Shown here: piece by piece, positions 22,740 to 50,474 of the stretch
Layout of the letters: each line of letters opens with the position of its first letter
Numbering within the stretch: the first letter of the stretch is position 1
DNA from: a virus
Taxonomy: Duplodnaviria > Caudoviricetes
Direction: 5' to 3' (one strand)
Length of the DNA stretch: 64,000 nucleotides
Virus record (IMG/VR): IMGVR_UViG_3300005535_000018
Coordinates: 39,500 to 103,499 of that record
Notes under the pieces: model-generated
Databases searched by the model: none
What the model was told of the DNA's origin: nothing
Seen by the model: the letters and a program-made list of their open reading frames with translations, nothing else
Program-made: the position numbers and the translations under genes

Positions 22740-22755
22740 CCGGTTCGTCCGATAT

Positions 22756-22808
22756 TGCCCCAGAGAACCCCTTGTGTTCTCTGGGGCACTGTCGTATCCT
22801 AGAGATAC
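22756..22808 (+). promoter_or_regulatory. Repeated promoter/operator, copy 2
   Basis: 13-bp stem hairpin; TTGTGT-17-TATCCT; CTAGAGATAC. Confidence 0.85.
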
Positions 22809-22826
22809 CAACCACAGGAGGCCCCC

Positions 22827-23102
22827 ATGAACACCCACCCCGCCACCCCCGGCCAGAAGGTCATCTACCACGGCTCGATCGAAGAGGCCCGGGGCGAGGC
22901 CACCTACATCGGCGTGTGCGACGCCGACGTCCTTGACCCCTGCGCCGAGTGTGCGGCCCGGGACGAAGAGTGGGAGTTCTGGGGCAGCCCGGCCCCCGCG
23001 CCGATCCGCTACCGGCTGCGCCTCACCGCCACCGTCGAGCTGCGCTGCGTCCGGGCCGAGTCGTTCAGCCCGATCGTGGCCGACGCCGTCGCCGCCCACT
23101 AG
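22827..23102 (+). CDS. Hypothetical protein
   Basis: AGGAGG RBS. Confidence 0.75.
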   Translation: MNTHPATPGQKVIYHGSIEEARGEATYIGVCDADVLDPCAECAARDEEWEFWGSPAPAPIRYRLRLTATVELRCVRAESFSPIVADAVAAH

Positions 23103-23154
23103 ACCCCCCCCGGCCGGGGCGCCCCGCCCCGGCCCGCCGCCCGAGGAGGCAGCC

Positions 23155-23541
23155 ATGCTCGACACCACCACGATCCGCGTCCGGGTCGGCCGGACCGTCA
23201 AGACCTACCCGGCCGACGTCGCCGCCTACGCCCAGCACCTCGCCGAGGGTGGCGTCACGGTCAGCCTCGCCGAGGCCCGCCGGCAGGCCCGCGAGATGCT
23301 CGCCGCGAACCGGGCCGAGTGGGTCACCGGCGTCGTGTTCTGGGCGACCCTCGATGAGTCGGGTCTGGCGTACCGGCTGGACTTCGACCGCCGCGGCCGC
23401 TACAGCATCGACGCGGCCGCCCCGATGGCCGGACCCGACAACGTGCGAGACCTGTACGACGTCGACGGCTACGGCTGCGGCTGGGCCGGCCACAGCGACG
23501 CGGTCGGCGAACACGGCTGGTGCCCGGTCTGCCAGGACTGA
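23155..23541 (+). CDS. Hypothetical protein
   Basis: AGGAGG RBS; C-terminal CxxC. Confidence 0.75.
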   Translation: MLDTTTIRVRVGRTVKTYPADVAAYAQHLAEGGVTVSLAEARRQAREMLAANRAEWVTGVVFWATLDESGLAYRLDFDRRGRYSIDAAAPMAGPDNVRDLYDVDGYGCGWAGHSDAVGEHGWCPVCQD

Positions 23542-23566
23542 AGCGCCCCGGGCCTTGCGTCCGGTT

Positions 23567-23620
23567 TGCCCCAGAGAACCCCTTGTGTTTCTCTGGGGCA
23601 CTGTTGTATCCTAGAGACAC
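23567..23620 (+). promoter_or_regulatory. Repeated promoter/operator, copy 3
   Basis: TTGTGT-18-TATCCT; same hairpin. Confidence 0.85.
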
Positions 23621-23643
23621 AACGACGAGGCGAGGAGCCCACC

Positions 23644-24207
23644 ATGACGACCACCCGCACCTTCACCGAAGGCGAAGACGCCCTGTTCGAGCAGATCGAC
23701 AACGACGGCACGATGCGCTGCACCGTGTGCGGCTCGGTCGACTCGATCGCCAGCGAGTCGTACCCCAGCATGTATGCCGGCGACGAGAGCAGCGAGACCT
23801 GCGGCATCTGCGGCTCGTACGAGGCCGACAGCGACCCGTTCAAAGGCACCCGGGTCATCGAGCGCCGCGAAGGCCAGCTGCTGCTGATCCCGGCCGGCGA
23901 CACCACGATGCGGCTGGTGGCGCGGGGCGGGTTCCTGTACCCGGCGACCAGCGACGAGCACGACGAGGCCAACTACGAGACGGACCCCGCAACGCTCCTC
24001 GACGTCAAGGTCGGCGACCGGGTCGCGGTCACCTACCCGCACCTGGACTGGTTCGGCACCTTCACCGTGACGGAGCTCCAGCGCGACCAGTGGGGCCTTC
24101 GCTTCCACGGCGCGAGCTGGGACGCGGCGGGAGCGGGGCAGCCGATGCCGGCGGGCGTGAGCCCGTTCGCGGAGACGTCCACGCACCGCATCGCCCGCGC
24201 CGCCTGA
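23644..24207 (+). CDS. Hypothetical protein with N-terminal double-CxxC module
   Basis: GAGGAG RBS. Confidence 0.75.
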   Translation: MTTTRTFTEGEDALFEQIDNDGTMRCTVCGSVDSIASESYPSMYAGDESSETCGICGSYEADSDPFKGTRVIERREGQLLLIPAGDTTMRLVARGGFLYPATSDEHDEANYETDPATLLDVKVGDRVAVTYPHLDWFGTFTVTELQRDQWGLRFHGASWDAAGAGQPMPAGVSPFAETSTHRIARAA

Positions 24208-24221
24208 CCGGTTCGTCCGAC

Positions 24222-24275
24222 GTGCCCTAGAGAACCCCTTGTGTTCTCTGGGGCACTGCCGTATCCTAGAGACAC
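24222..24275 (+). promoter_or_regulatory. Repeated promoter/operator, copy 4
   Basis: TTGTGT-17-TATCCT. Confidence 0.85.
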
Positions 24276-24300
24276 AAGACGACGCGATGAGGAGCCCCCC

Positions 24301-24807
24301 ATGACGATCAACTTCACCCAGACGATCGCGACCGACGCCGACGCCCTGTTCGAGACCAGCCCGGACGGTACGACCTGCTGCACCGTCTGCGAGTCGCTCA
24401 ACTCGCTCGCCCGCGGCCGCCGCTGCACCGTGTGCGGCTCGTTCGAGGCCGACGGCCAGCCCGGCACCCGGGTCATCGCCCGCCGCAACGACGCCCGCAC
24501 CCTCGCCGACATCGAGCACGCCTACGACAACGAGGACTGGTGCGGGTACGGCTACCTAGCTCGCCGCAGCCAAGCCCTGAACAGCACCGACCCGGAGATC
24601 CCCTCGCAGCCCGACCGGGTCACCGAGGCCGACACGTGGCTGCTGGCCGAGGTCAACAGGCAGGGCTGGACCGCCGAAGAGTTGTTCAACTGGCTCAACA
24701 GCCGGACGGGCCGCTTCTACGGCGACCTGTGGTTCGGCGGCACCGCCGGCACCAAGCACCCGGTCGTGGAGCAGTCCCGGCCGCTCGTTCGGCGAGTGCG
24801 GGTCTGA
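24301..24807 (+). CDS. Hypothetical protein sharing its N-module with 23644-24207
   Basis: DALFE..DGT..CTVC..CGS.EAD..GTRVI. Confidence 0.75.
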   Translation: MTINFTQTIATDADALFETSPDGTTCCTVCESLNSLARGRRCTVCGSFEADGQPGTRVIARRNDARTLADIEHAYDNEDWCGYGYLARRSQALNSTDPEIPSQPDRVTEADTWLLAEVNRQGWTAEELFNWLNSRTGRFYGDLWFGGTAGTKHPVVEQSRPLVRRVRV

Positions 24808-24816
24808 TCTGCCGCA

Positions 24817-24870
24817 AGTGCCCTAGAGACACCCTTGTGTCCTCTAGGGCACTAGTGTATCCTAGAGACA
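24817..24870 (+). promoter_or_regulatory. Repeated promoter/operator, copy 5
   Basis: AGTGCCCTAGAG/CTCTAGGGCACT; TTGTGT-17-TATCCT. Confidence 0.85.
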
Positions 24871-32330: not shown

Positions 32331-32924
32331 GTGCCTTCTGTGACGCTGCCGACGTTGCCGCTCGACCCGGGCCGTGACCCTTGGGACCGGCAACCCGACG
32401 AGACGACGCTGCGCTACGACCAGTTCCGGCTCTACCTCGACGCGGGGCGGGGCCGCACCCTGCGCAAGGTTGCCGAAACCCTTGCACGTCACCCGGCCTA
32501 CGTGCGGGCGGTCGCGGCCGCGTACCGGTGGGTGGAGCGGGCCGAAGCCCAAGACCGGCACCGCGACGACCTGCACGAGAAGGTGTGGCTGGAGGAGCGG
32601 CGCAAGGCCGCCGAACGGGACAGTGCCCTGCTCAACGCCGCCGTCGGGAAGGTCGCCGGCCGGCTCCAGACGCTGCTGCCCGAGGAGCTGGACCCGGCGG
32701 ACCTGGTGCGCATGTTGGACGTCGTCATGCGGCACCGGCGGGCCCTGTTCGGCGACCCGGGGCTGACGGTGGCGGTGACCGGCCCGGGCGGCGACCCCCT
32801 CGCGGTGCAGTTGGCCGAGCTGGCGGCGATGACGGCGGACCAACGCCGCTCCGCGATCGCGGACCTGACCGCGGCCGTGGCCCGCCGGTCACGGGCGTCG
32901 GCCGGTGGGGACGACGATGAATGA
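32331..32924 (+). CDS. Terminase small subunit (putative)
   Basis: PWDRQPDE..F..YLD.G..R.L..VA; WVERA; precedes TerL. Confidence 0.7.
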   Translation: MPSVTLPTLPLDPGRDPWDRQPDETTLRYDQFRLYLDAGRGRTLRKVAETLARHPAYVRAVAAAYRWVERAEAQDRHRDDLHEKVWLEERRKAAERDSALLNAAVGKVAGRLQTLLPEELDPADLVRMLDVVMRHRRALFGDPGLTVAVTGPGGDPLAVQLAELAAMTADQRRSAIADLTAAVARRSRASAGGDDDE

Positions 32925-34504
32925 CGGGCCCCGACCGGGCCGGCGAGCTGGCCACCGCCGATGACCTGACGGTCTATTCGACGCTGCTGGCTGCGCAGCG
33001 GTCCCTGGCGGGTGACCTGCTGGTCGACCCGGCGACGATGGCGCGGGGGCTGGACGGCGAGTACCGCATGCGCCCGCACCTGCGGGTGATCGGGGCGGCG
33101 ATGGCGGGGGTGCTGGCCGGTGCCTATGACCGGCTGCTCGTGATCACGCCCCCGCAGGTCGGCAAGTCCACCCTCGTCGGCGAGTGGGGCGTGATGTGGT
33201 GGCTCGCGAACCGGCCCACCGACGACGTTGTGATCGCCTCCTACGGGGCTGACCTGGCCGAGGCCCGGTCGAAGGCCGTCCGGGCGTTGATCATCGCCCA
33301 CGGCGGCGAGTACGGGCTGCGCCCGTTGCGCGGCTCCAACGCGGCCAAAGACTGGCGCCTGGAGTCCGGAGCGCACCTGCGGGCGATTGGTGTGGGCGGT
33401 GGGCTGTCCGGCTTCCCGGCGAACCTCCTGGTCGTCGACGACCCACACGCTGACCGGGCCGAAGCCGAGTCGCCCCGCATCAGGGGCGCCGTGCATGACT
33501 GGTGGTCGTCGACCGCGTCGACCCGGCTGCAACCCGACATGGGGGCGGTGATCTGTGTCCAGACCCGATGGCACCTCGACGACTTCGCCGGCCGGCGCCT
33601 CGAGGAGGAAGGCCGCATCGAAGACGGCGGCCGGTGGAAGGTGGTCCACCTGCCCGCCATCGCGGACCCCCGCTTCGGCGTCGACCCGCTCGGCCGCCAG
33701 CCGGGGGAGCCCCTGACCCACCCGAAGATCCGCACCAGCGACACGGCGGCGCTGGTGGCGTGGTGGCAGGGCAAGAAGGCCGGCTCGCTCGTGCGGGACT
33801 GGCATTCGCTGTACCAGGGCGACCCGCAACCCGCCGCTGGGGCGTTGGTGACGGCCGAGGTGCTGCGCAACATCCGCGACGCCAAGACCGAGGTCGAGCC
33901 GCAACGCATCGCCGTCGCGGTTGACCCGTCGGGCGGGGGCCGCGACGTCGCCGGCATCATCGGCGGCTTCCTCGGCGACGACGGCCGGCTGTGGATCACC
34001 GACGACGTCTCCGCGGTCATGTCGTCGGAGGAGTGGTCGCTGGCCGCGGTGCGCCTGGCCTACGACATCGGCGCCTCAGTGATCGTCGTCGAGACCAACT
34101 ACGGCGGCGACATGGCCACGCTGGTGCTGCGCACTGCCTGGGCGACGATGGCCCGCGAAGGCGAGATCGACGCCGAGGAACTGTGCCCGCTGATCAGGGT
34201 CGTGCGGGCCCGGCAAGGCAAGCTGCTGCGGGCTGAGCCGATCGCCCAGCAGATGTTCATGGACCGGGTGCGGCTGCGGGGCCTGTTCGTGGACCTTGAG
34301 CGGGAGTGGATGACGTGGCAGCCCACCGACCCGCTGTCGCCCGGGCGCATCGACGCCTCGGTGTACCTCGCCTACGCGTTGTTGCCGATCCCGTCGATTG
34401 GGGCGCAGTTCGCCACCCCGTCCGGGTCGATGCCGACCAGTGCCGTGTCGCCGCTGGGCGGCCAGTCGGCGGAGGCGACGACCACGGTGTCGCCCCTGGG
34501 CTGA
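32921..34504 (+). CDS. Terminase large subunit
   Basis: PPQVGKST; LVVDDP; QTRWHLDD; VAVDPS; RIDA. Confidence 0.95.
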   Translation: MTGPDRAGELATADDLTVYSTLLAAQRSLAGDLLVDPATMARGLDGEYRMRPHLRVIGAAMAGVLAGAYDRLLVITPPQVGKSTLVGEWGVMWWLANRPTDDVVIASYGADLAEARSKAVRALIIAHGGEYGLRPLRGSNAAKDWRLESGAHLRAIGVGGGLSGFPANLLVVDDPHADRAEAESPRIRGAVHDWWSSTASTRLQPDMGAVICVQTRWHLDDFAGRRLEEEGRIEDGGRWKVVHLPAIADPRFGVDPLGRQPGEPLTHPKIRTSDTAALVAWWQGKKAGSLVRDWHSLYQGDPQPAAGALVTAEVLRNIRDAKTEVEPQRIAVAVDPSGGGRDVAGIIGGFLGDDGRLWITDDVSAVMSSEEWSLAAVRLAYDIGASVIVVETNYGGDMATLVLRTAWATMAREGEIDAEELCPLIRVVRARQGKLLRAEPIAQQMFMDRVRLRGLFVDLEREWMTWQPTDPLSPGRIDASVYLAYALLPIPSIGAQFATPSGSMPTSAVSPLGGQSAEATTTVSPLG

Positions 34505-34575: not shown

Positions 34576-34920
34576 ATGTCGGTATGGCCGTGGGTGGTGT
34601 ATGCCCTGGCAGTCGCCCGCATCACCGGCCTCATCGCCGCCGACGAGATCAGCCGGCCGGCCCGTGAATGGATCGTCGAGCACCTTCCGCTCTGGCGCTT
34701 CTCCGTTGCGTTCGAATACCTGCTGACCTGCGTCTGGTGTGTGTCCTTGTGGGTGGCGGCTGGCACCGTGGCCCTCGCGTGGCATTGGGGTGGGCGGGCC
34801 TGGCTGGTGGGTCCGGCCCTCGCCCTCGCGCTCAGCCAGGTCGCCGGCATGGTGTCGCCGCTGGGCCGGCCGGCCCCTCAACCCGCACCCGACAGTGACG
34901 ACGCCGCGGTGACGCCATGA
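34576..34920 (+). CDS. DUF1360-like membrane protein
   Basis: ARITGLI..D.I; LLTCVWCVSLW; TATAGT 7 nt upstream (leaderless-type). Confidence 0.75.
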   Translation: MSVWPWVVYALAVARITGLIAADEISRPAREWIVEHLPLWRFSVAFEYLLTCVWCVSLWVAAGTVALAWHWGGRAWLVGPALALALSQVAGMVSPLGRPAPQPAPDSDDAAVTP

Positions 34921-36893
34921 CGGTGGCGACCCTGCCCGCCCACCGTCTGCCCGACCTCAACCAGCGCTGCACCGGCACCGCGACCACGACCGGCGCCCAG
35001 TGCCGCCGGTGGACCGTGCCCGGCACCGACCGGTGCGGCACCCACGCCTCCGCGACGTTGCCGATGCAGGCCGTCACCGCCTCGGTCGCCACGGTCCAGA
35101 TGGAGGGGGTGGGGTGGCGTACCTGGCGGCCCGGCTCCCGCACCTGGCAGACCGAGGCGTGGCGCCTCTACGACATCACCCCCCAGCTGCGGTTCGTCTG
35201 CAACTGGGTCGGCAACTCCGTCAGCCGGTGCCGGCTGTACGTGGCCGAGCTGGACGAGTCCGGCGAGATCACCGGCGAGGTCGACGACCCCGAGATCGGC
35301 GCCCTGGCGCAGGGCCCCCTCGGTAAGGGCCCCGCCAAAGACGAGGCGCTGCGACTGCTGGCGATCAACCTGTACGTGCCGGGTGACGGCTTCATCGTCG
35401 CCGAGGCCGACGCCGGCCCCGACGGCGACGACCTGTGGTTCGTGACGAGCGGCCGCCAGATTCGCCTGTCCGGCGACCGGATCATCATTCGCCGCTCGCT
35501 GCTGCACGGCGGCGGCGACATGATCTTTAGGCCCGGGGTGGACCTGCTGCTGCAGGTGTGGACGCCTCACCCGGCCGAACCGGACGAGCCGGACTCGCCG
35601 ACCCGCTCGGCCATCCCTGACCTGCGAGAGATCGAGGCCCTGCGCAAGCGCGAGTTCGCCGAGTTGGACTCGCGGTTGGCCGGCGCGGGCCTGCTCGCCC
35701 TGCCGCAGGGCATCGACTTCCCTCGGGCGCCCGACGACCCGCCCGGCATCGACGGCTTCCAACGGCTGCTGATGCGGGCGATGGCGACCAGCCTGCAGGA
35801 CCGGGCCTCCGCCGAAGCCCTCGTGCCGATCATGGTGACCGTCCCGCCCGACGTCGTCGACAAGATCAGGCTGGTCACGTTCTGGAGCGACCTGTCCGAG
35901 CAGTTGCTGCCGTTGCGTGAGGCGGCCGTGCGGTCCCTCGCCCAGGGCCTGGACATACCACCAGAAATCCTCCTAGGTCAGGCAGATAGCAATCACTGGA
36001 CTGCCTGGCAGGTGAGCGACGATGCGATCACCACGCAGATCAAACCGATCTTGGCCCGCATCGCCGACGCCCTCACCACCGGCTACCTGCGCCCGGCGCT
36101 CGAGTCGATGGGCCTCGACCCGGACCTGTACTCGTACGACTTCGACACCGGCCCCCTGTCCGCCCGCCCGAACCGCACCACCGACGCCCTCGCCTACCAC
36201 TCCGAGATCCTGTTGTCCGACGAGGCGGCCGTGCTCGCGGGCGCGTGGACGCCGGAGCAGATGCCCACGCAGCGGGAGCGGCTACGCCGCATCGCGGAGC
36301 GGGCCCTGGTGGCTGACCCGACCCTGCTGACCGACCCGACGATCAGGGAACTGGTGGGCCTACCGCCGCCCCCGCCGTCGGTGGTCGCGCCGGCCCCACC
36401 GCCCGGCGCCCCCAGCCCGCCGCCGCCCGCCCCGGGTCAGGAACCCCGCGCTATCCCGACCCAGCCCACCGAGGCTCCCAAACCGGCCCCCCCGCCGGCC
36501 CAGCCCGCCCCCGCGCCGGCCCCGACGGCAGCGTTGCTGCTGCCCGTGGCGGGGCTGGCGGTGCGGCGGGCCCTTGCCCTGGCCGGGGTGCGGCTGGTCA
36601 CCCACTACCAACGTGACCAGTGGCCCGACACGCCCCGCCACCAGCTCCACACCCGACGCGGCCCGGTCAGCGTCGCCGACGCCGAACGGGTGCTGCGCGG
36701 CGCCTGGACCGAGCTGGCCCCCGCCGCCGACGACCTCGGCCTTGACCCGGTCAGTGTTGAGACCCTCCTGCACGGCTTCTGCGTCGAGCTCCTCACCCGC
36801 GGCATGGCGTACGAGGCGACCCTGCTGCGTGACCTCGTCGACGCCGCCTGCACCGGCCGGCGCCTCGACGCGGCACTGGGGGTCGCCGCATGA
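34917..36893 (+). CDS. Portal protein
   Basis: Position after TerL; WQTEAW.LYD..PQL; DSP.RS; LDIPPEILLG..NHW.AW. Confidence 0.85.
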   Translation: MTVATLPAHRLPDLNQRCTGTATTTGAQCRRWTVPGTDRCGTHASATLPMQAVTASVATVQMEGVGWRTWRPGSRTWQTEAWRLYDITPQLRFVCNWVGNSVSRCRLYVAELDESGEITGEVDDPEIGALAQGPLGKGPAKDEALRLLAINLYVPGDGFIVAEADAGPDGDDLWFVTSGRQIRLSGDRIIIRRSLLHGGGDMIFRPGVDLLLQVWTPHPAEPDEPDSPTRSAIPDLREIEALRKREFAELDSRLAGAGLLALPQGIDFPRAPDDPPGIDGFQRLLMRAMATSLQDRASAEALVPIMVTVPPDVVDKIRLVTFWSDLSEQLLPLREAAVRSLAQGLDIPPEILLGQADSNHWTAWQVSDDAITTQIKPILARIADALTTGYLRPALESMGLDPDLYSYDFDTGPLSARPNRTTDALAYHSEILLSDEAAVLAGAWTPEQMPTQRERLRRIAERALVADPTLLTDPTIRELVGLPPPPPSVVAPAPPPGAPSPPPPAPGQEPRAIPTQPTEAPKPAPPPAQPAPAPAPTAALLLPVAGLAVRRALALAGVRLVTHYQRDQWPDTPRHQLHTRRGPVSVADAERVLRGAWTELAPAADDLGLDPVSVETLLHGFCVELLTRGMAYEATLLRDLVDAACTGRRLDAALGVAA

Positions 36894-37282
36894 GCGACAC
36901 CCCGTGGGGCATTGCGCAGGCCGTCGCGCAACGCAACGGCCTCGACCCGCTCGTGCTGTACACCCACGCCAACGCCCACCACGACGGCAACCCGATCGGC
37001 CCCGACTGGACCGCCCAATGTGAGGCGGCCGCCGCCTGTCTGCACGGCCACGACCCGGCCCAATGGCTCATCGCGGAGGTTGACCGGGCCGCGGCCGAGG
37101 TCACCGACCGGGTGCTGCGGCCAGCCCTGGCCGACGCGGGCCTGGACCCCACTCAGCATTCGCTCCGGTTCGACACGACGCCCCTGCTGACCGACGAGCT
37201 GCGGCCGCTGCGAGACGCGGCCGTGCGGTCCCTCGCCCGGGGCCTCGACATCCAGCCCGAGATCCTCGGCGGTGGGCAGTGA
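36890..37282 (+). CDS. Hypothetical protein containing portal-derived segments
   Basis: LRPAL..GLDP..FDT.PL and PLR.AAVRSLA.GLDI.PEIL. Confidence 0.65.
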   Translation: MSDTPWGIAQAVAQRNGLDPLVLYTHANAHHDGNPIGPDWTAQCEAAAACLHGHDPAQWLIAEVDRAAAEVTDRVLRPALADAGLDPTQHSLRFDTTPLLTDELRPLRDAAVRSLARGLDIQPEILGGGQ

Positions 37283-38124
37283 CGGGCTGGGACGGCACCG
37301 GCGTCGACCCGTTTCTGCCCGAACGCATCGCGGCCGAGCTGGACGCCGCCACCGCCGAACGGCAGGTGTACCGGGCCTGGTGGTCGTCGCTGTCCGAATG
37401 GCTCGTCGAAGTCAACCGCGGCGTGTTGGCCAGCGGCCTGCCCGACCCGAACGCGATCTGGGCGCAGGCCCCGCAGTGGTCGTCGCTGATGGACGGCGTC
37501 GTCTACGGCGCCGTACGCGGCGCGGTCGGCCTGCCCTACGGGCAGCTGCTGGGCGGCGACTACCTGTTCGATCAACGGCCGGCGGTCACCGCCTACCTGG
37601 GTGAGGTCCACAACCGGATGGTCCGCACCCCGGAGCAGGTGTACGACGTCGTCGCCCGCCAGGTCGCCCGCGGCGCCGCGGCCGGCGAGTCCATCCCGAC
37701 CATCGCGGCCCGGGTCGACGACGTGCTCACCACGACCGGCACCGCCAACTGGCGGGGCCGGGCCACCGTCGTCGCCCGCACCGAAACGTTGGGGGCGCTG
37801 TCGTTCGGCCGGGCCGACGCCTTCAGCGCCGTCGCCGACACCCTGGGCGGCGACTTCGAGCTGGTGTGGTTGGCCACTTTGGACAGTCGGGTGCGGCCCG
37901 CCCACCGCATCGCCGACGGCCAACGCGTGCCGCTCGGCACCCCCTTCACGGTCGACGGCGAGCACCTCATGCGCCCCGGCGACCCGGCCGGCTCGGCCGA
38001 CAACGTCATCCAATGCCGCTGCTCAACCCTCCTGGAGCGGCCGGGCGAGACCACCGACATGACCGGACGCGGCTTCACCGACGCGGCCGCGTGGTGGGCC
38101 AAGCAAATCGCGCAGGTCACATAA
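37279..38124 (+). CDS. MuF/SPP1 gp7-like minor head protein
   Basis: ARTET; WLATLDSRVRPAH..ADGQ; PGDP..NVIQCRC. Confidence 0.9.
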   Translation: MTGWDGTGVDPFLPERIAAELDAATAERQVYRAWWSSLSEWLVEVNRGVLASGLPDPNAIWAQAPQWSSLMDGVVYGAVRGAVGLPYGQLLGGDYLFDQRPAVTAYLGEVHNRMVRTPEQVYDVVARQVARGAAAGESIPTIAARVDDVLTTTGTANWRGRATVVARTETLGALSFGRADAFSAVADTLGGDFELVWLATLDSRVRPAHRIADGQRVPLGTPFTVDGEHLMRPGDPAGSADNVIQCRCSTLLERPGETTDMTGRGFTDAAAWWAKQIAQVT

Positions 38125-38139
38125 GGGAGCACAACCATC

Positions 38140-40287
38140 ATGGGTACGCGCTGGCGCGGGATGCTCGCGCCGATCAACCGGCCGACCGGCGACGGGCGGC
38201 GTATGGCCAAGGGTGCGTTCCGGTCCCGGCCGCTGCCCCTGGCCCTGAAGTGGCAGCGGCAAGACGAGATGGGCCACGATTCCTCGGTTGTGGTTGGCCT
38301 CGTCGACCGGCTCGACATCGACGAGGTGTCGGGCGAGGTGTGGGCCGAAGGGGAGCTGTTCGACGACCAGCCCCAGTTGCCGCGCCTCACCCAGGACGTC
38401 GCCGAGGCGATGCTGCTGACCTCCAAGAAGATCATCGGCCCGTCGGTGGATGCCGGCGCCGCCGAAATGATCTTTGTGCGGGAGGGCTCCGACGTCCCGT
38501 TGACTGACGCTGACTGGGAAGAGCTGCTGCGCCAGGAGATGGACTCAGGCGAACCGGCACCCATCGAGATGCTGTTCACCGACTACGAGATCGCCGCCGC
38601 CACACTGGTCGCGATTCCGGCGTTCGTCGAAGCCCGGCCATTCCAGCTGCTGCCCGCCGCCCCGGCCGAGCAACCCGCCCCCGACGCGGCGCCCCAGCCC
38701 GCACCGGAGCCAGCGCCGGCCGCGGCCGGCCGGCTTGCGGTGCTGACCGCGGCCGCGGCCGGGCCGGTCACGTTGCCGGCTGACGTGTTCGCCGGCCCCG
38801 CCGACGCCCCGCCCTACCAGCTGCTGACGGTTGAGGCGCCCCGCGACGGGGAGCCGTTCCGGCGGGTGGCCGGCTACGCCGCCGCGTTCGGCGTGTGCCA
38901 CGTCGGGTTCAAGGGCGTCTGTGTCCAGGCCCCCAACGCCTCGGTCGACTACGCCCTGTACCACCGCTACCCGCTCGACACGGCCGAAGGTCTGGTGGCC
39001 ACCGGCCGCATCACCACCGGCCTCGGCCGGGTCGGGTCGGGCTGCTCGCACCTCAAGTGCCGCCGCAACGACGACCACGCCTGCCGCGACTATTCGCTGA
39101 CCGACACGATCAGCCACCACGACCAGATGCGCACCGTTGCGCACGTGCGGGCGACCGAATACGCCGGCGTGGGCGTCTGGGTCCAGGGCATCATCGCCGA
39201 CGACGCCACCGACGACGACCTGGCGGTGCTGGCCCGGCAGCGGGTGTCGGCCGACTGGCGCGAGTACGCGGGCCACCTCGAGATGGTCGAGGTGTTGGCG
39301 TTGGCGAAGGAGGAGCCCGGCTTCCCGATTCCCGCGACGACCATCCGCGACGGCCGCCAGTACAGCCTGATCGCGGCGGGTGCGGTGCCGCCTCTCGACC
39401 CGGTGACCGTGACACCGCCACCCGAGCCGGAGTTGGCGGGCGTGGCGGCGACGATCGCGTCGCTGGTCGTGGCGGAGCTCCGCCGGCCGCTGCTGGCCGC
39501 GGCCGCCGCCGCCGACTCGAAGCCCGCGCCTGACCAGCAGCCCCCGCCGGACTGCCAGCCCGGCGAGCCGGGCTGCGAAGACATGCCGATGCCGGTGCAG
39601 CACACCGGCGCGATGGTGGCGTTGGTGCCGTCAGAAGCCGACGCGGCCCGCCTCGCCGTCGACGGCGGCGAAGCCCCCGAAGAGCTGCACCTCACCCTCG
39701 TCTACCTGGGTGAGGCGGCCGACATCAACGCCGCCAGCCGGCAGGCCATCATCGACTCCCTGACCTCGCTGTGCGCGGAGTGGCACACGGCTGCCGAAGG
39801 TGAGCTGTCGATCGTCGGGGATGCGTTCAGCGTCAACGCTTTCAACCCGGCGGCCGAAGACAAGGAACCCTGCATCGTGTTGGGCGTCTCGGGCGAGCAG
39901 GTCGCCGCCGCCCACGAGCAGGTGACCGACGTCGTCAAGGCCGTCTTCGGGTTCCCGCCCCAACACCAGCCGTACGTGCCGCACGTGACCCTCGCCTACA
40001 CCGAGGACATGTCGCTGATCGCCGACCTGGCCGACCGCACCGGCGACGTCACGTTCGACCGGGTCCGGATCGCGTTCGCGGGCGCCTACCACGACATTCC
40101 GTTGGGCGGCCCCGCCGACCCGGCCACCGACGGCGAGGCCCCGCCAGCCGGCGGGCAGGAGCCGGTGACCGCGGCGGCGTTGCTGGCCGAGCTGGGCGCT
40201 GCCCTCGACTGGCCCGACGCCGACGAGCGGGCCCGGGCCGCGGCCGAGCTGGCCCGCGAGATCGAGCGGGAGGCCGTGCATGTGTAG
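38140..40287 (+). CDS. Head maturation protease-like protein with C-terminal 2H phosphoesterase
   Basis: TGDGR..LPL..GH..VVG; HLTL and HVTL motifs. Confidence 0.78.
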   Translation: MGTRWRGMLAPINRPTGDGRRMAKGAFRSRPLPLALKWQRQDEMGHDSSVVVGLVDRLDIDEVSGEVWAEGELFDDQPQLPRLTQDVAEAMLLTSKKIIGPSVDAGAAEMIFVREGSDVPLTDADWEELLRQEMDSGEPAPIEMLFTDYEIAAATLVAIPAFVEARPFQLLPAAPAEQPAPDAAPQPAPEPAPAAAGRLAVLTAAAAGPVTLPADVFAGPADAPPYQLLTVEAPRDGEPFRRVAGYAAAFGVCHVGFKGVCVQAPNASVDYALYHRYPLDTAEGLVATGRITTGLGRVGSGCSHLKCRRNDDHACRDYSLTDTISHHDQMRTVAHVRATEYAGVGVWVQGIIADDATDDDLAVLARQRVSADWREYAGHLEMVEVLALAKEEPGFPIPATTIRDGRQYSLIAAGAVPPLDPVTVTPPPEPELAGVAATIASLVVAELRRPLLAAAAAADSKPAPDQQPPPDCQPGEPGCEDMPMPVQHTGAMVALVPSEADAARLAVDGGEAPEELHLTLVYLGEAADINAASRQAIIDSLTSLCAEWHTAAEGELSIVGDAFSVNAFNPAAEDKEPCIVLGVSGEQVAAAHEQVTDVVKAVFGFPPQHQPYVPHVTLAYTEDMSLIADLADRTGDVTFDRVRIAFAGAYHDIPLGGPADPATDGEAPPAGGQEPVTAAALLAELGAALDWPDADERARAAAELAREIEREAVHV

Positions 40288-48465: not shown

Positions 48466-48602
48466 GCCGTTCCGGTCGGCTACCTTCCCGGTGACACGAG
48501 CGAGACGGGGCGTGACGGTGCGGCCGGCCCTCGACGGCGCTTACGCATACTGGCGGCTGCTGCGGTCAGGCCAGGTGTGAGACCAGATTATTGGGGTCTT
48601 CC

Positions 48603-50474
48603 ATGCCTGACGAGCCGATCGTTGACGACGCTCCAGCCACCACCGAATACGCTTTCCCGTTTCAGGTCCCGACCGACCTTGCGGGCCTGTCCGACGCCGA
48701 CCTGCGTGCGCTGCACGAGCAGGTCCGCGCCCACGCTTCCGGCTTCTCGGGCCTCAGCCCGGCCGACACCACCGACGAGACCCTGGCCGCGCTGACCGCG
48801 TGCCGTGACCTCGCCCGCAACATCTCGGGGGAGATCGTGGGCCGCCGCGACCGGGCCGCCGCCGCCGGTGACCTCGCCGCGGAGATTGACGAGCTGGAGC
48901 TGCCAGCCGACCCGGACCCGGCCGACCTCGACGCGGCCGCCGACGTCGACAACGGCGGCGATGACGACGACGCTGCCCTTGCCGAGCCTGAGCCGGCCCT
49001 GACCGCGTCACGCCGCTCCATGCCGGCGCCGCGGGTGCGTGACGTGGCCCGCCGCTCGCCGGCCTCGACACCGCTGACGCCCGCCGCCGCGACCCGGGGC
49101 GCCTACGCCTCCCTCAACGCGGTCGCGTCGATCGGCGGCTACTCGGCCGGGCAGCGCCTCGAGTCGTTCGGCGACGCCGCCCGGGCGATGATGACGCAGC
49201 TCGAGCGGTACCAGTCCCTCACGGCTGGCCGGGCCCGCGGCAACAAGCGCTACGCCGGCAAGACCCGCCCCGTCACGATGTACGACAAGGACGACCCGGG
49301 CCGCCGGTTCGAGCTGCGCAACTACTCCCGCCACAACATCGCCGAGTTGCGGCGCGAGTTCCCGGCCGAGCTGCGCGTGGACGAGGCGACCGGCAACGGC
49401 TACGCGGTGGCCGAGTACGCCGCCAGCGAGCGGCGGCTGCCGGGCGGCAGCCTGATCGCGTCGGTGGCCCAGTCGGTCCGCAACGGCCGGTCGCTGACCG
49501 CCGCCGCTGGATGGTGCGCTCCATCCGACGTGATTTATGATCTTCTAGAACTTGAATCCCTCGATGGGATGCTAGACATCCCGGAGATCCAGACCACCCG
49601 CGGTGGCTGGCAGATCCCGATTGACGGCGGCCCCGACTTCAGCTCGATCTACAACGCGCTCGGCAACGGCGGTGACACGCACCTCACCGAGGCCGAGGTG
49701 ATGGACGACGCCACCAAGATCTGCACCGAGATTCCCTGCCCTCCCTTCGAGGACGTCCGGCTGGGCGTCGACTACTTCTGTTTGACCGGCGGCCTGCTCC
49801 AGCGCCGCGGCTACCCGGAGGTCGTCGCCCGCTTCACCAGGGGTGCCACGGTTGCCCTCGCCCACAAGATCAACTATGGGGTGATGGCCCAGATCGTCGC
49901 CGCCAGCGGCGCGGTCAATTTCATCCCGCAGGACCCCAACGGCGACGACGCCGCCAGCGCCCTGCTCGCCGCGATCGACCTGGCGATCGTCGATGCCAAG
50001 TACCGCAACCGCATGGGCTTCGCCACGACGATGGAGGTCATCCTCCCGTGGTGGGTGCTGGTGCAGGTGCGGGCCGCCCTGGGCCGCCGCCGCGGTGTTG
50101 AGGGCTGGCAGGTCACCAACGCCGAAATCCTGTCGTGGTTCGCGGAGCGCAACGCCCGCCCGCAGTTCATCTACGACTGGCAGGACGCCGCGTCTGGTCT
50201 GGCGACCGGGCCGGGTGGGGCGACGCCGCTGACCCGCCTTCCCCTGACCGTGGACTTCGCCCTGTGGCCCGCGGGCACCTGGGTCAAGCCAGTGCAGGAC
50301 GTGGTCAGTTTGGACACAATTTACGATTCAACCCTTTTGAGCACTAACCAATACACCGCCGTCTTTGTCGAAGATGGATGGGCGACGATGCAAATGTCGC
50401 CGATCTCACGCCTCTACCGGGTCAACGTCGATCCCGGTGGCGTCACCGGCTGCTGCGACACCGTCGGGTCCTGA
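48603..50474 (+). CDS. Major capsid (hexamer) protein with N-terminal scaffold region
   Basis: AAGWCAPS..YD; RRGYPE; LDTIYDS..L.TN.YTA.F.E.G; resembles mycobacteriophage cluster B-type capsids. Confidence 0.88.
   Translation: MPDEPIVDDAPATTEYAFPFQVPTDLAGLSDADLRALHEQVRAHASGFSGLSPADTTDETLAALTACRDLARNISGEIVGRRDRAAAAGDLAAEIDELELPADPDPADLDAAADVDNGGDDDDAALAEPEPALTASRRSMPAPRVRDVARRSPASTPLTPAAATRGAYASLNAVASIGGYSAGQRLESFGDAARAMMTQLERYQSLTAGRARGNKRYAGKTRPVTMYDKDDPGRRFELRNYSRHNIAELRREFPAELRVDEATGNGYAVAEYAASERRLPGGSLIASVAQSVRNGRSLTAAAGWCAPSDVIYDLLELESLDGMLDIPEIQTTRGGWQIPIDGGPDFSSIYNALGNGGDTHLTEAEVMDDATKICTEIPCPPFEDVRLGVDYFCLTGGLLQRRGYPEVVARFTRGATVALAHKINYGVMAQIVAASGAVNFIPQDPNGDDAASALLAAIDLAIVDAKYRNRMGFATTMEVILPWWVLVQVRAALGRRRGVEGWQVTNAEILSWFAERNARPQFIYDWQDAASGLATGPGGATPLTRLPLTVDFALWPAGTWVKPVQDVVSLDTIYDSTLLSTNQYTAVFVEDGWATMQMSPISRLYRVNVDPGGVTGCCDTVGS

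What the first reader, a model, noticed from the sequence alone, without database searches (positions are those of the whole stretch)
35955..36002. Recoded island on the conserved portal motif
Seen: IPPEILLGQADSNHWT uses A/T-ending codons in 10 of 16 positions (ATA CCA CCA GAA..CTA GGT..GCA GAT..AAT..ACT), while flanking codons are almost all G/C-ending and the protein motif is intact. Inference: targeted sequence escape from a DNA-recognising agent (homing endonuclease, CRISPR spacer or other guide) at a site that cannot change at protein level.
Basis: partly seen in the sequence, partly recalled or inferred. Interest (0 to 1): 0.75.

Follow-up and report, generated by a model that had tools for sequence, protein, structure and literature searches.

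The report
Recoded empty intein site in portal gene
The odd stretch of A/T-ending codons in this high-GC phage's portal gene lies directly beside the point where close relatives carry a self-splicing, self-copying intein, so it is most likely an intein-free version of that target site shaped by conflict with the intein's DNA-cutting enzyme.

Summary
Codons 347-362 of the portal gene (34917-36893) have 10/16 A/T-ending codons against 42/643 elsewhere (p about 8e-9). It is the strongest such window in the gene.

The decisive result is that portal homologues carry an intein inserted exactly between W361 and T362 (35999|36000). One of them is a near-isogenic sister of the closest relatives. The large forms fold as Hint plus LAGLIDADG homing endonuclease.

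The intein-bearing sister allele uses ordinary GC codons in this flank. The intein-free window, its clade and a phage only 76% identical overall (L096) share the A/T-rich version. The shared 24-nt core (35973-35996) is discordant with the extein tree and falls in the best-conserved DNA window of the gene. Across 17 intein-free alleles, the gene-wide peak of A/T-ending codons sits at codons -10 to 0 of the insertion site. A distant portal subfamily with the same motif shows no peak.

Best reading: an intein-free homing-site haplotype, probably endonuclease-resistant, moved between phages by short gene conversion. Resistance is inferred, not shown.

Caveats:
- One intein-bearing allele also has an A/T-rich flank.
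- The sister lineage was invaded despite A-type ancestry.
- The capsid gene has similar islands with no known intein.

The parts
34917..36893 (+). Portal protein gene (658 aa), intein-free
   Evidence: PHROG 776 E 3.8e-151 over residues 49-633. No copy of the intein was found anywhere in the 103-kb genome, while positive controls matched in two other records.
35955..36002 (+).
   Evidence: 10/16 A/T-ending codons against 42/643 elsewhere, p 7.8e-9.
35973..35996 (+). Core 'A-type' haplotype CTA GGT CAG GCA GAT AGC AAT CAC (codons 353-360), shared with the L004-L008 clade and with the divergent phage L096
   Evidence: L096 matches L004 and differs from its own sister L105 at seven consecutive informative codons, -8 to -1. 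The 48-nt window over codons 350-365 is 97.9% identical between L004 and L096 and 93.8% between the window and L096, against 76% overall. It is the best window of the gene.
35997..36002 (+). Empty intein insertion point, between W361 (TGG, 35997-35999) and the +1 residue T362 (ACT, 36000-36002)
   Evidence: Homologues P0004, P0049, P0055, P0058 and P0060 read ...NHW|C...(143 or about 400 aa)...TGN|(T/S)AWQV. Loci L055-L060 and L081 show the same.
36000..36053 (+). 3' flank of the insertion point, identical over 54 nt to relative L004
   Evidence: The genes are 84.5% identical overall, so the chance of 54 identical bases is about 1e-4. The intein-bearing L055 differs here (TCC GAA GAC, AAG, CTG).
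35892..35972 (+). Direct repeat copy R1 (portal codons 326-352), ending where the A-type core begins
   Evidence: 81-nt repeat, 81% identical to 37187-37267.
36890..37282 (+). Small ORF P0002 (130 aa) made of portal-like pieces. Residues 3-99 are an old paralogue of portal residues about 339-414. Residues 100-128 are a second copy (R2, 37187-37267) of portal residues 326-354, written in GC-ending codons. A link to the homing site is possible but not shown.
   Evidence: L105 has a 108-aa orthologue (62% identical) and L004-8/L055 have 65-aa forms. R2 is present only in the window phage.

Best explanation
The island is the 5' flank, plus the +1 codon, of an unoccupied homing site for a LAGLIDADG-type intein that circulates in the portal genes of related high-GC actinobacterial phages and prophages. 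In this phage and some others the site carries a synonymous 'A-type' haplotype. It keeps the invariant protein motif but differs at about 8 bases in the 27 nt next to the insertion point from the GC-type sequence that flanks the intein in occupied alleles. The proposed mechanism has three steps, all inferred. First, the intein's endonuclease cuts GC-type empty sites during co-infection. Second, cut genomes are repaired from an uncuttable template, which is either an intein-bearing allele (homing) or an A-type empty allele. Third, the surviving intein-free alleles become enriched for variant sites, and the short A-type patch is copied across otherwise divergent phages. The codons end in A/T because in a genome with 92% GC3 almost any synonymous departure from the default is A/T-ending, and for two-fold codons it is the only option. 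Shown here: the position at the insertion site, the allele contrast, the tree-discordant sharing of the patch, and the endonuclease fold. Inferred: resistance to cleavage and the direction of conversion.
For: (1) Intein insertion exactly after W361 in relatives.
(2) The inserted element has Cys1, a conserved TT..H block, a terminal Asn followed by Ser/Thr, and two LAGLIDADG-like motifs (VAWYFTEG, FIDTA(V/I)R(G/A)DG). Its AF2 model (pLDDT 77) matches TliVMA intein, PI-SceI, PI-PfuI and I-DmoI at Foldseek E down to 3e-12. At least 290 long proteins carry this intein family, many of portal size.
(3) L055 is 96.9% identical to L004 in the exteins and carries a 143-aa mini-intein. It has GC-type flanks, and 21 of its 63 differences from L004 lie within +/-55 nt of the insertion point (p 1e-11).
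(4) The A-type core is shared by the window, L004-8 and L096, although the extein tree places L096 with GC-type L105 and L097.
(5) In 17 intein-free alleles the ten highest 9-codon A/T3 windows of the whole gene all start at -10 to 0 of the site (0.30-0.35 against a mean of 0.10). More than 20 high-GC alleles of the distant subfamily with the same motif show 0-1 of 16.
(6) The Asn359 codon is AAT in 12 of 17 intein-free alleles and 1 of 6 intein-bearing alleles (Fisher p 0.05, not corrected for phylogeny).
(7) In IMG/VR no A-type flank is joined to an intein, and one GC-type flank is.
(8) Literature: for the LAGLIDADG enzyme WHO6, 8 of 24 synonymous changes in a 28-bp site gave resistance (bioRxiv 10.64898/2026.08.13.744650). 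Resistance by target mutation is only speculated for actinophage inteins (bioRxiv 10.1101/2025.01.02.630785).
Against: - No cleavage data exist, so resistance is inference.
- L055 is nested inside the A-type clade. An A-type ancestor was therefore apparently invaded at least once, with about 55-nt co-converted flanks.
- The intein-bearing allele L056 has an A/T-rich 5' flank (9/16) although its intein is GC-rich. The six intein-bearing alleles also peak near the site. A/T-richness here is therefore not exclusive to empty sites.
- The island reaches -45 nt, and L097's A/T-rich tract reaches +51 nt. Both extend beyond a typical 22-31 bp recognition site.
- The TCG to AGY serine switch cannot arise by single synonymous steps, which suggests the patch evolved elsewhere and was imported.
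- The capsid gene of the same phage has two comparable A/T3 islands with no intein found.
- Samples are small and phylogenetically non-independent.
Confidence: 0.5

Rival explanations
1. Co-conversion scar without any resistance function. The patch is flanking DNA dragged in during past homing or intein-loss events, possibly from a lower-GC donor, and is now decaying neutrally.
For: L055 shows that tracts of about 55 nt on each side travel with the intein. The island length (45 nt) and L097's 3' tract fit that scale. All differences between the window and L004-8 inside the island can be read as A/T to G/C decay from an ancestor with about 12-13 of 16 A/T-ending codons. The serine codon-family switch suggests import. 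Intein-bearing L056 also has an A/T-rich flank.
Against: The amino-acid sequence of the patch is identical to that of GC-type close relatives, and no low-GC donor with this motif was found. L056's intein is GC-rich while its flank is A/T-rich, which is the opposite of what a low-GC donor would give. A/T3 codons are retained between the window and L005 at 6/10 in the island against 8/34 elsewhere (p 0.05). The L004-L096 patch is 47/48 identical on 76% identical backgrounds, which argues against slow neutral decay. The window carries no intein, so a precise loss would be needed.
Confidence: 0.28
2. General motif-centred patch exchange or local mutation process unrelated to the intein. Conserved motifs in structural genes of these phages acquire short A/T-rich patches, and the intein site coincides only because inteins also choose conserved motifs.
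For: The capsid gene 48591-50474 has two A/T3 islands over conserved motifs. They are polymorphic among relatives, and no intein-bearing homologue appears among the best 120.
Against: The distant portal subfamily keeps the identical NHWTAWQV motif and spans GC3 of 0.6-0.93, yet shows no enrichment. In the exposed subfamily the peak sits at the insertion point at codon resolution. Patch boundaries abut the insertion point.
Confidence: 0.12
3. Functional nucleic-acid or translation signal: a rare-codon pause for folding, an internal or antisense promoter, or an RNA structure.
For: CTA, ATA and AGT are rare codons in this genome. The core is well conserved between the window, L004 and L096.
Against: Near-isogenic pairs differ in it (L004 against L055; L096 against L105), so it is dispensable. 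There are no promoter-like or terminator-like sites. The RNA fold z-score is -1.5, not significant. It is absent from most high-GC alleles.
Confidence: 0.05
4. Escape from CRISPR spacers or another guide-based defence that targets the conserved motif.
For: The patch length (24-48 nt) resembles a protospacer, and conserved motifs make good spacer targets.
Against: Escape usually needs one PAM or seed change, not 8-10. This does not explain the exact abutment on the intein insertion point or the contrast between intein-bearing and intein-free alleles. No spacer database was available to test it.
Confidence: 0.05

Closest known systems
Inteins with LAGLIDADG homing endonucleases in actinobacteriophage portal proteins (Kelley et al. 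2016, PMC5050341; bioRxiv 10.1101/2025.01.02.630785)
   Same: Same host protein class and host phylum. The relatives' element has class-1-like splicing residues, a Hint fold and a double LAGLIDADG domain. Mini-intein and full-length forms coexist.
   Different: The window itself has no intein, only the empty site. This intein family is not detected by Pfam or NCBIfam, and its penultimate residue is Gly rather than His. Those papers do not describe target-site variants; one only speculates about resistance.
Cleavage-resistant target alleles in LAGLIDADG homing systems: WHO elements/FBA1 in Torulaspora (bioRxiv 10.64898/2026.08.13.744650), and PI-SceI/VMA1 (the latter from my own knowledge)
   Same: A conserved host gene, allele-specific target sequences, synonymous changes able to confer resistance, and gene fragments left downstream of the target gene after homing. 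Compare the portal-like pieces in P0002.
   Different: In WHO elements positive selection also acts on amino acids and the endonuclease gene sits downstream. Here all changes are synonymous, no endonuclease gene lies in the locus, and resistance is untested.
Invasion-resistant empty intein sites in haloarchaeal MCM (PMC10643990)
   Same: Empty sites in an intein-exposed population differ systematically from occupied ones, and co-conversion of flanks is needed for invasion.
   Different: In MCM the barrier is a +1-side proline that blocks splicing, which is a protein-level barrier. Here the protein is unchanged. Relative L106, with Ala at +1, may be the analogue of that mechanism.
Co-conversion tracts and marker exclusion by phage homing endonucleases (T4 I-TevI, SegG; Liu et al. 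2003 as cited; otherwise my own knowledge)
   Same: Short tracts of donor sequence centred on the cut site, and mosaic distribution among related phages.
   Different: Those involve introns or free-standing genes in T-even phages. Tract sizes here (24-55 nt) are at the short end.

Membership tests
Intein (Hint domain) with LAGLIDADG homing endonuclease: the element in relatives | In-frame insertion inside a conserved host-protein motif, with the host sequence continuous on removal | tested here: met
   NHW|C...N|(T/S)AWQV in P0004, P0049, P0055, P0058, P0060 and loci L055-L060, L081. Exteins align end to end with intein-free portals.
Intein (Hint domain) with LAGLIDADG homing endonuclease: the element in relatives | Splicing residues: Cys/Ser at position 1, block-B Thr..His, C-terminal Asn, and Cys/Ser/Thr at +1 | tested here: met
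   C1, T66/T67, H70 and N405 are invariant in six inteins, and +1 is Thr or Ser. The penultimate residue is Gly rather than the usual His.
Intein (Hint domain) with LAGLIDADG homing endonuclease: the element in relatives | Hint fold plus LAGLIDADG endonuclease fold | tested here: met
   AF2 model pLDDT 76.7. Foldseek hits to TliVMA intein (E 3e-12), PI-SceI, PI-PfuI and I-DmoI. Sequence profiles (Pfam, NCBIfam, PDB phmmer) found nothing significant.
Intein (Hint domain) with LAGLIDADG homing endonuclease: the element in relatives | Presence of the element in the window | tested here: not met
   The window portal is 658 aa and colinear with intein-free alleles. There is no match to the intein anywhere in the 103-kb genome, while controls matched.
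Endonuclease-resistant (immune) empty homing site | Lies on the recognition or insertion site of the endonuclease | tested here: met
   The island ends at the insertion point. The shared core spans nt -27 to -4.
Endonuclease-resistant (immune) empty homing site | DNA differs from the sequence flanking occupied alleles while the protein is unchanged | tested here: met
   The intein-free alleles (window and L004, A-type: CTC CTA GGY CAG GCA GAY AGY AAT CAY TGG ACT) differ from L055 (CTG CTC GGC CAG GCC GAC TCG AAC CAC TGG ACC) over the same amino acids.
Endonuclease-resistant (immune) empty homing site | Not cleaved by the cognate endonuclease | not testable with these tools
   Needs a cleavage assay. 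L055's position inside the A-type clade suggests resistance may be incomplete.
Homing co-conversion tract | Short tract centred on the insertion site whose history disagrees with the rest of the gene | tested here: met
   L055 against L004: 21 of 63 differences lie within +/-55 nt. L096 carries the L004-type core on an L105-like background.
Homing co-conversion tract | Tract accompanies an intein in the same allele | tested here: not met
   The window, L004-8 and L096 have the tract but no intein.
Internal promoter or structured RNA element | Consensus promoter hexamers, or a fold more stable than shuffles | tested here: not met
   0 promoter-like sites. Fold z-score -1.53.

The most novel reading that the evidence does not exclude
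The A-type patch is an intein-free 'immune' allele that itself spreads super-Mendelianly. Whenever the intein's endonuclease cuts a GC-type portal gene in a mixed infection, repair can copy the 24-50-nt A-type patch instead of the intein, so a resistance allele hitch-hikes on the selfish element's own cleavage across phages only 76% identical. If so, islands of A/T-ending codons in high-GC phage genes, including the two in this phage's capsid gene, would serve as a sequence-only marker for present or past homing-endonuclease targets.
Probability: 0.25. Interest if true: 0.75.

Novelty: new member of a known kind. Interest (0 to 1): 0.6.

Why it matters
Models of the intein and homing-endonuclease life cycle predict resistant empty sites, but few natural examples exist, and none is documented for phage inteins; the 2025 actinophage survey only speculates about them. 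This locus offers a natural three-allele series on nearly the same genetic background: GC-type empty, A-type empty, and occupied with a mini or full intein. All differences are synonymous, so the DNA-level conflict can be separated cleanly from protein function and tested with simple cleavage assays. It also suggests a cheap, sequence-only way to find homing sites in high-GC phage genomes, namely local dips in GC3 over invariant motifs.

Tried and rejected
- **Promoter or terminator.** The scan of 35700-36300 found none.
- **RNA structure.** Fold z-score -1.5, not significant.
- **Repeated promoter-like motif.** A TCCTAG-containing motif occurs elsewhere in the genome, but it shares only the hexamer with the island.
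- **Antisense ORF 35567-35956.** It has an upstream AGGAGG. It is a shadow frame whose ATG and SD-like bases are forced by the Asp-Ile and Ile-Leu-Leu codons. Considered from the sequence and not pursued.
- **Low-GC intein as donor of the A/T-rich flank.** L055's intein has A/T3 of 0.04 and L056's 0.10, while L056's flank is 0.56. Not supported.
- **A universal rare-codon cluster of this portal motif.** Absent in more than 20 high-GC alleles of the distant subfamily.
- **Searches that gave little.**
  - The phage GenBank collection returned only distant matches.
  - Genome contigs returned one distant locus.
  - IMG/VR exact-pattern scans returned only the five known relatives.
  - Pfam, NCBIfam and PDB sequence searches did not recognise the intein.
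  - Earlier-findings look-up was empty.
- **Capsid-gene intein search.** None among the best 120 of 420 homologues. Lower-ranked hits were not visible, so this is weak evidence.
- **Mutagenic-repair signature.** The changes mix C>T, C>A and G>A, with no strand-coordinated pattern (read).

Full report
**1. The observation**

The window is part of a 103.5-kb, 71.7% GC viral contig that is about 96% complete. ORF 34917-36893 (+) encodes a 658-aa portal protein (PHROG 776, E 3.8e-151). It lies between a large terminase gene (32921-34504) and a Mu-F-like head morphogenesis gene (37279-38124).

Ten of the 16 end in A/T, against 42 of 643 in the rest of the gene. That gives p = 7.8e-9 per window and 5e-6 after correcting for all windows. 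All top-scoring windows overlap this island. As a 48-mer it is in the lowest 0.18% of the genome for GC.

**2. Relatives**

Five IMG/VR contigs (L004-L008, 82% amino-acid identity) have the same amino acids and also 7-8 of 16 A/T-ending codons. Some are the same codons (GAA, CTA, GGT, GCA, AAT, ACT) and some differ (ATT against ATA, AGT against AGC, CAT against CAC). More than 20 other high-GC portals of the wider family keep the NHWTAWQV motif but have 0-1 A/T-ending codons there. The feature is therefore lineage-restricted and is not a general property of the motif.

**3. The decisive result**

A protein search restricted to residues 300-430 returned homologues of 810-1061 aa that matched only about half of the region. 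Their sequences show an in-frame insertion exactly between ...SNHW and (T/S)AWQV.... In window coordinates this is between 35999 and 36000.

The insertion begins with Cys and ends in Asn, followed by Thr or Ser. It has an invariant TT..H block and, in the forms of about 400 aa, two LAGLIDADG-like motifs (VAWYFTEG and FIDTA(V/I)R(G/A)DG). Sequence profiles do not recognise it. An AlphaFold2 model (pLDDT 77) matches the TliVMA intein, PI-SceI, PI-PfuI and I-DmoI with Foldseek E down to 3e-12.

The family is common. At least 290 long proteins carry it, many of portal size and from Streptomyces, Nonomuraea and Streptosporangium records. Portal inteins are known in actinophages (PMC5050341; bioRxiv 10.1101/2025.01.02.630785). 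The window genome has no copy, while controls matched in two other records. The island is thus the 45 nt directly 5' of an empty intein homing site, plus the +1 codon.

**4. Allele contrast**

L055 (= P0004) is 96.9% identical to L004 in its exteins and carries a 143-aa mini-intein (A/T3 0.04). Its flanks read CTG CTC GGC CAG GCC GAC TCG AAC CAC TGG | intein | ACC ... TCC GAA GAC. These are ordinary GC-ending codons, with only 3 of 16 ending in A/T.

Twenty-one of its 63 differences from L004 lie within +/-55 nt of the insertion point (p 1e-11). This shows that tracts of about 55 nt move together with the intein.

**5. Tree-discordant sharing**

L096 is only 76% identical to the window and to L004 at the DNA level. 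The extein tree, built without the 20 residues on each side of the site, groups it with GC-type L105 and L097:

((L095,L104),((L097,(L096,L105)),(win,(L004,(L007,L055))))), with all these nodes starred.

Yet L096 carries the A-type core. At seven consecutive informative codons (-8 to -1) it equals L004 and differs from its sister L105, and outside that run it follows L105. The 48-nt window over codons 350-365 is 97.9% identical between L004 and L096 and 93.8% between the window and L096. It is the best window in the whole gene for both pairs.

On the 3' side, the window and L004 are identical for 54 nt (36000-36053) although the genes are 84.5% identical overall. Short patches around the insertion point therefore have their own history.

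**6. Meta-profile**

In 17 distinct intein-free alleles of the intein-exposed subfamily (mean A/T3 0.10), the ten highest 9-codon windows of the whole gene all start at -10 to 0 of the insertion point (0.30-0.35). Several of the highest windows in the six intein-bearing alleles lie in the same neighbourhood.

Significant enrichment in single alleles occurs in three lineages:
- the window/L004-8 clade;
- L086, which is intein-free;
- L056, which is intein-bearing.

L097 has an A/T-rich 3' flank (10/18, p 4e-5). The Asn359 codon is AAT in 12 of 17 empty alleles and 1 of 6 occupied alleles (p 0.05, not corrected for phylogeny). IMG/VR holds no A-type flank joined to an intein and one GC-type flank that is.

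**7. Interpretation**

With high confidence, the island belongs to the evolutionary dynamics of an intein homing site. Its position, the allele contrast, the patch mobility and the subfamily-restricted peak all point there.

What selects or generates the A/T-rich state is less certain. I favour an endonuclease-resistant empty-site haplotype that survives in an intein-exposed population and is copied between phages by break-induced short gene conversion. A/T endings would be the natural outcome of any synonymous departure from a 92% GC3 default. The WHO6 LAGLIDADG study found that a third of synonymous changes in a 28-bp site give resistance, so 6-8 changes within 27 nt plausibly block cutting.

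Several points count against a simple version of this:
- L055 sits inside the A-type clade, so an A-type ancestor was invaded at least once.
- L056 combines an intein with an A/T-rich flank.
- The tracts extend beyond a typical recognition site.
- The TCG to AGY serine switch suggests the patch evolved elsewhere and was imported.

The main rival is a neutral co-conversion scar. A smaller rival is a general patch process at conserved motifs. The capsid gene of this phage supports that smaller rival, because it has two similar islands with no intein found. Promoter, RNA-structure and rare-codon-pause readings are rejected, because near-isogenic pairs differ in the patch and the scans were negative. 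CRISPR escape could not be tested and does not explain the link to the intein.

**8. Nearby oddity**

The small ORF after the portal gene (P0002, 36890-37282) is built from portal-like pieces that flank the homing site. Residues 3-99 are an old paralogue of portal residues about 339-414. This paralogue is conserved as a 108-aa ORF in L105 and as 65-aa forms in L004-8 and L055.

Only in the window phage, residues 100-128 are a second copy of portal residues 326-354. It is 81% identical at the DNA level, is written in GC-ending codons, and ends about 20-27 nt 5' of the insertion point. Gene fragments left downstream of a homing target are known for WHO elements. A similar origin here is only a conjecture.

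**9. Verdict**

It is a new example of a known kind of system, with a clean and testable allele series.

Noticed in passing
window 49506-49578 and 50304-50370 (major capsid gene 48591-50474): These are the two lowest-GC 48-mers of the whole genome. They are synonymous A/T-ending codon islands over conserved capsid motifs (GWCAPSDVIYDLLELESLDG; SLDTIYDSTLLSTNQ..FVEDG). Island 1 is absent from relatives that are 81% identical (L107, L110). Island 2 is partly shared with L107 only. No intein-bearing capsid homologue was seen among the best 120 hits.
   Followed up: partly
window 36890-37282 (P0002); repeat 35892-35972 / 37187-37267: The small ORF is made of portal-like pieces flanking the intein site: an old paralogue of portal residues about 339-414 (conserved in L105, truncated in L004-8/L055), plus a window-specific copy of portal residues 326-354 in GC-ending codons. 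These may be debris of past break repair or homing events.
   Followed up: partly
L106 (portal allele), +1 position: This intein-free allele reads NHW|ASWQI, with Ala at +1 where inteins need Ser, Thr or Cys. It would be a protein-level block to productive invasion. Its flank is also partly A/T-rich (CAA GCT GAT AGT AAT).
   Followed up: no
L097, codons +5 to +17 after the insertion point: An intein-free allele with an A/T-rich tract on the 3' side of the same insertion point (10/18 against a background of 0.14).
   Followed up: partly
window about 22750-24870 (four copies) and genome position about 26400: A repeated motif of about 55 nt, gcccYagagaaccccttgtgttctctggggcactgYcgtaTCCTAGagaca, with a sigma-70-like TTGTGT-17-TATCCT arrangement. 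It is probably a set of phage promoters or operators.
   Followed up: no
L060:1-924: The gene upstream of the portal in relative L060, presumably the large terminase, is at least 912 aa with a faint Intein_splicing hit. Another head-module gene of this phage group may therefore host an intein.
   Followed up: no
window 38140-40287: A 715-aa protein in the head module with a C-terminal 2H phosphoesterase / 2'-5' RNA ligase-like domain (PF13563, E 8.6e-8; weak Acb1 anti-CBASS hit).
   Followed up: no
between the portal and Mu-F genes in L004-8, L055, L095-L098, L104-L106: This intergenic slot holds a variable set of tiny ORFs (57-108 aa, including DUF7352), different in almost every relative. 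It looks like a hot spot of gene turnover directly downstream of the homing site.
   Followed up: no
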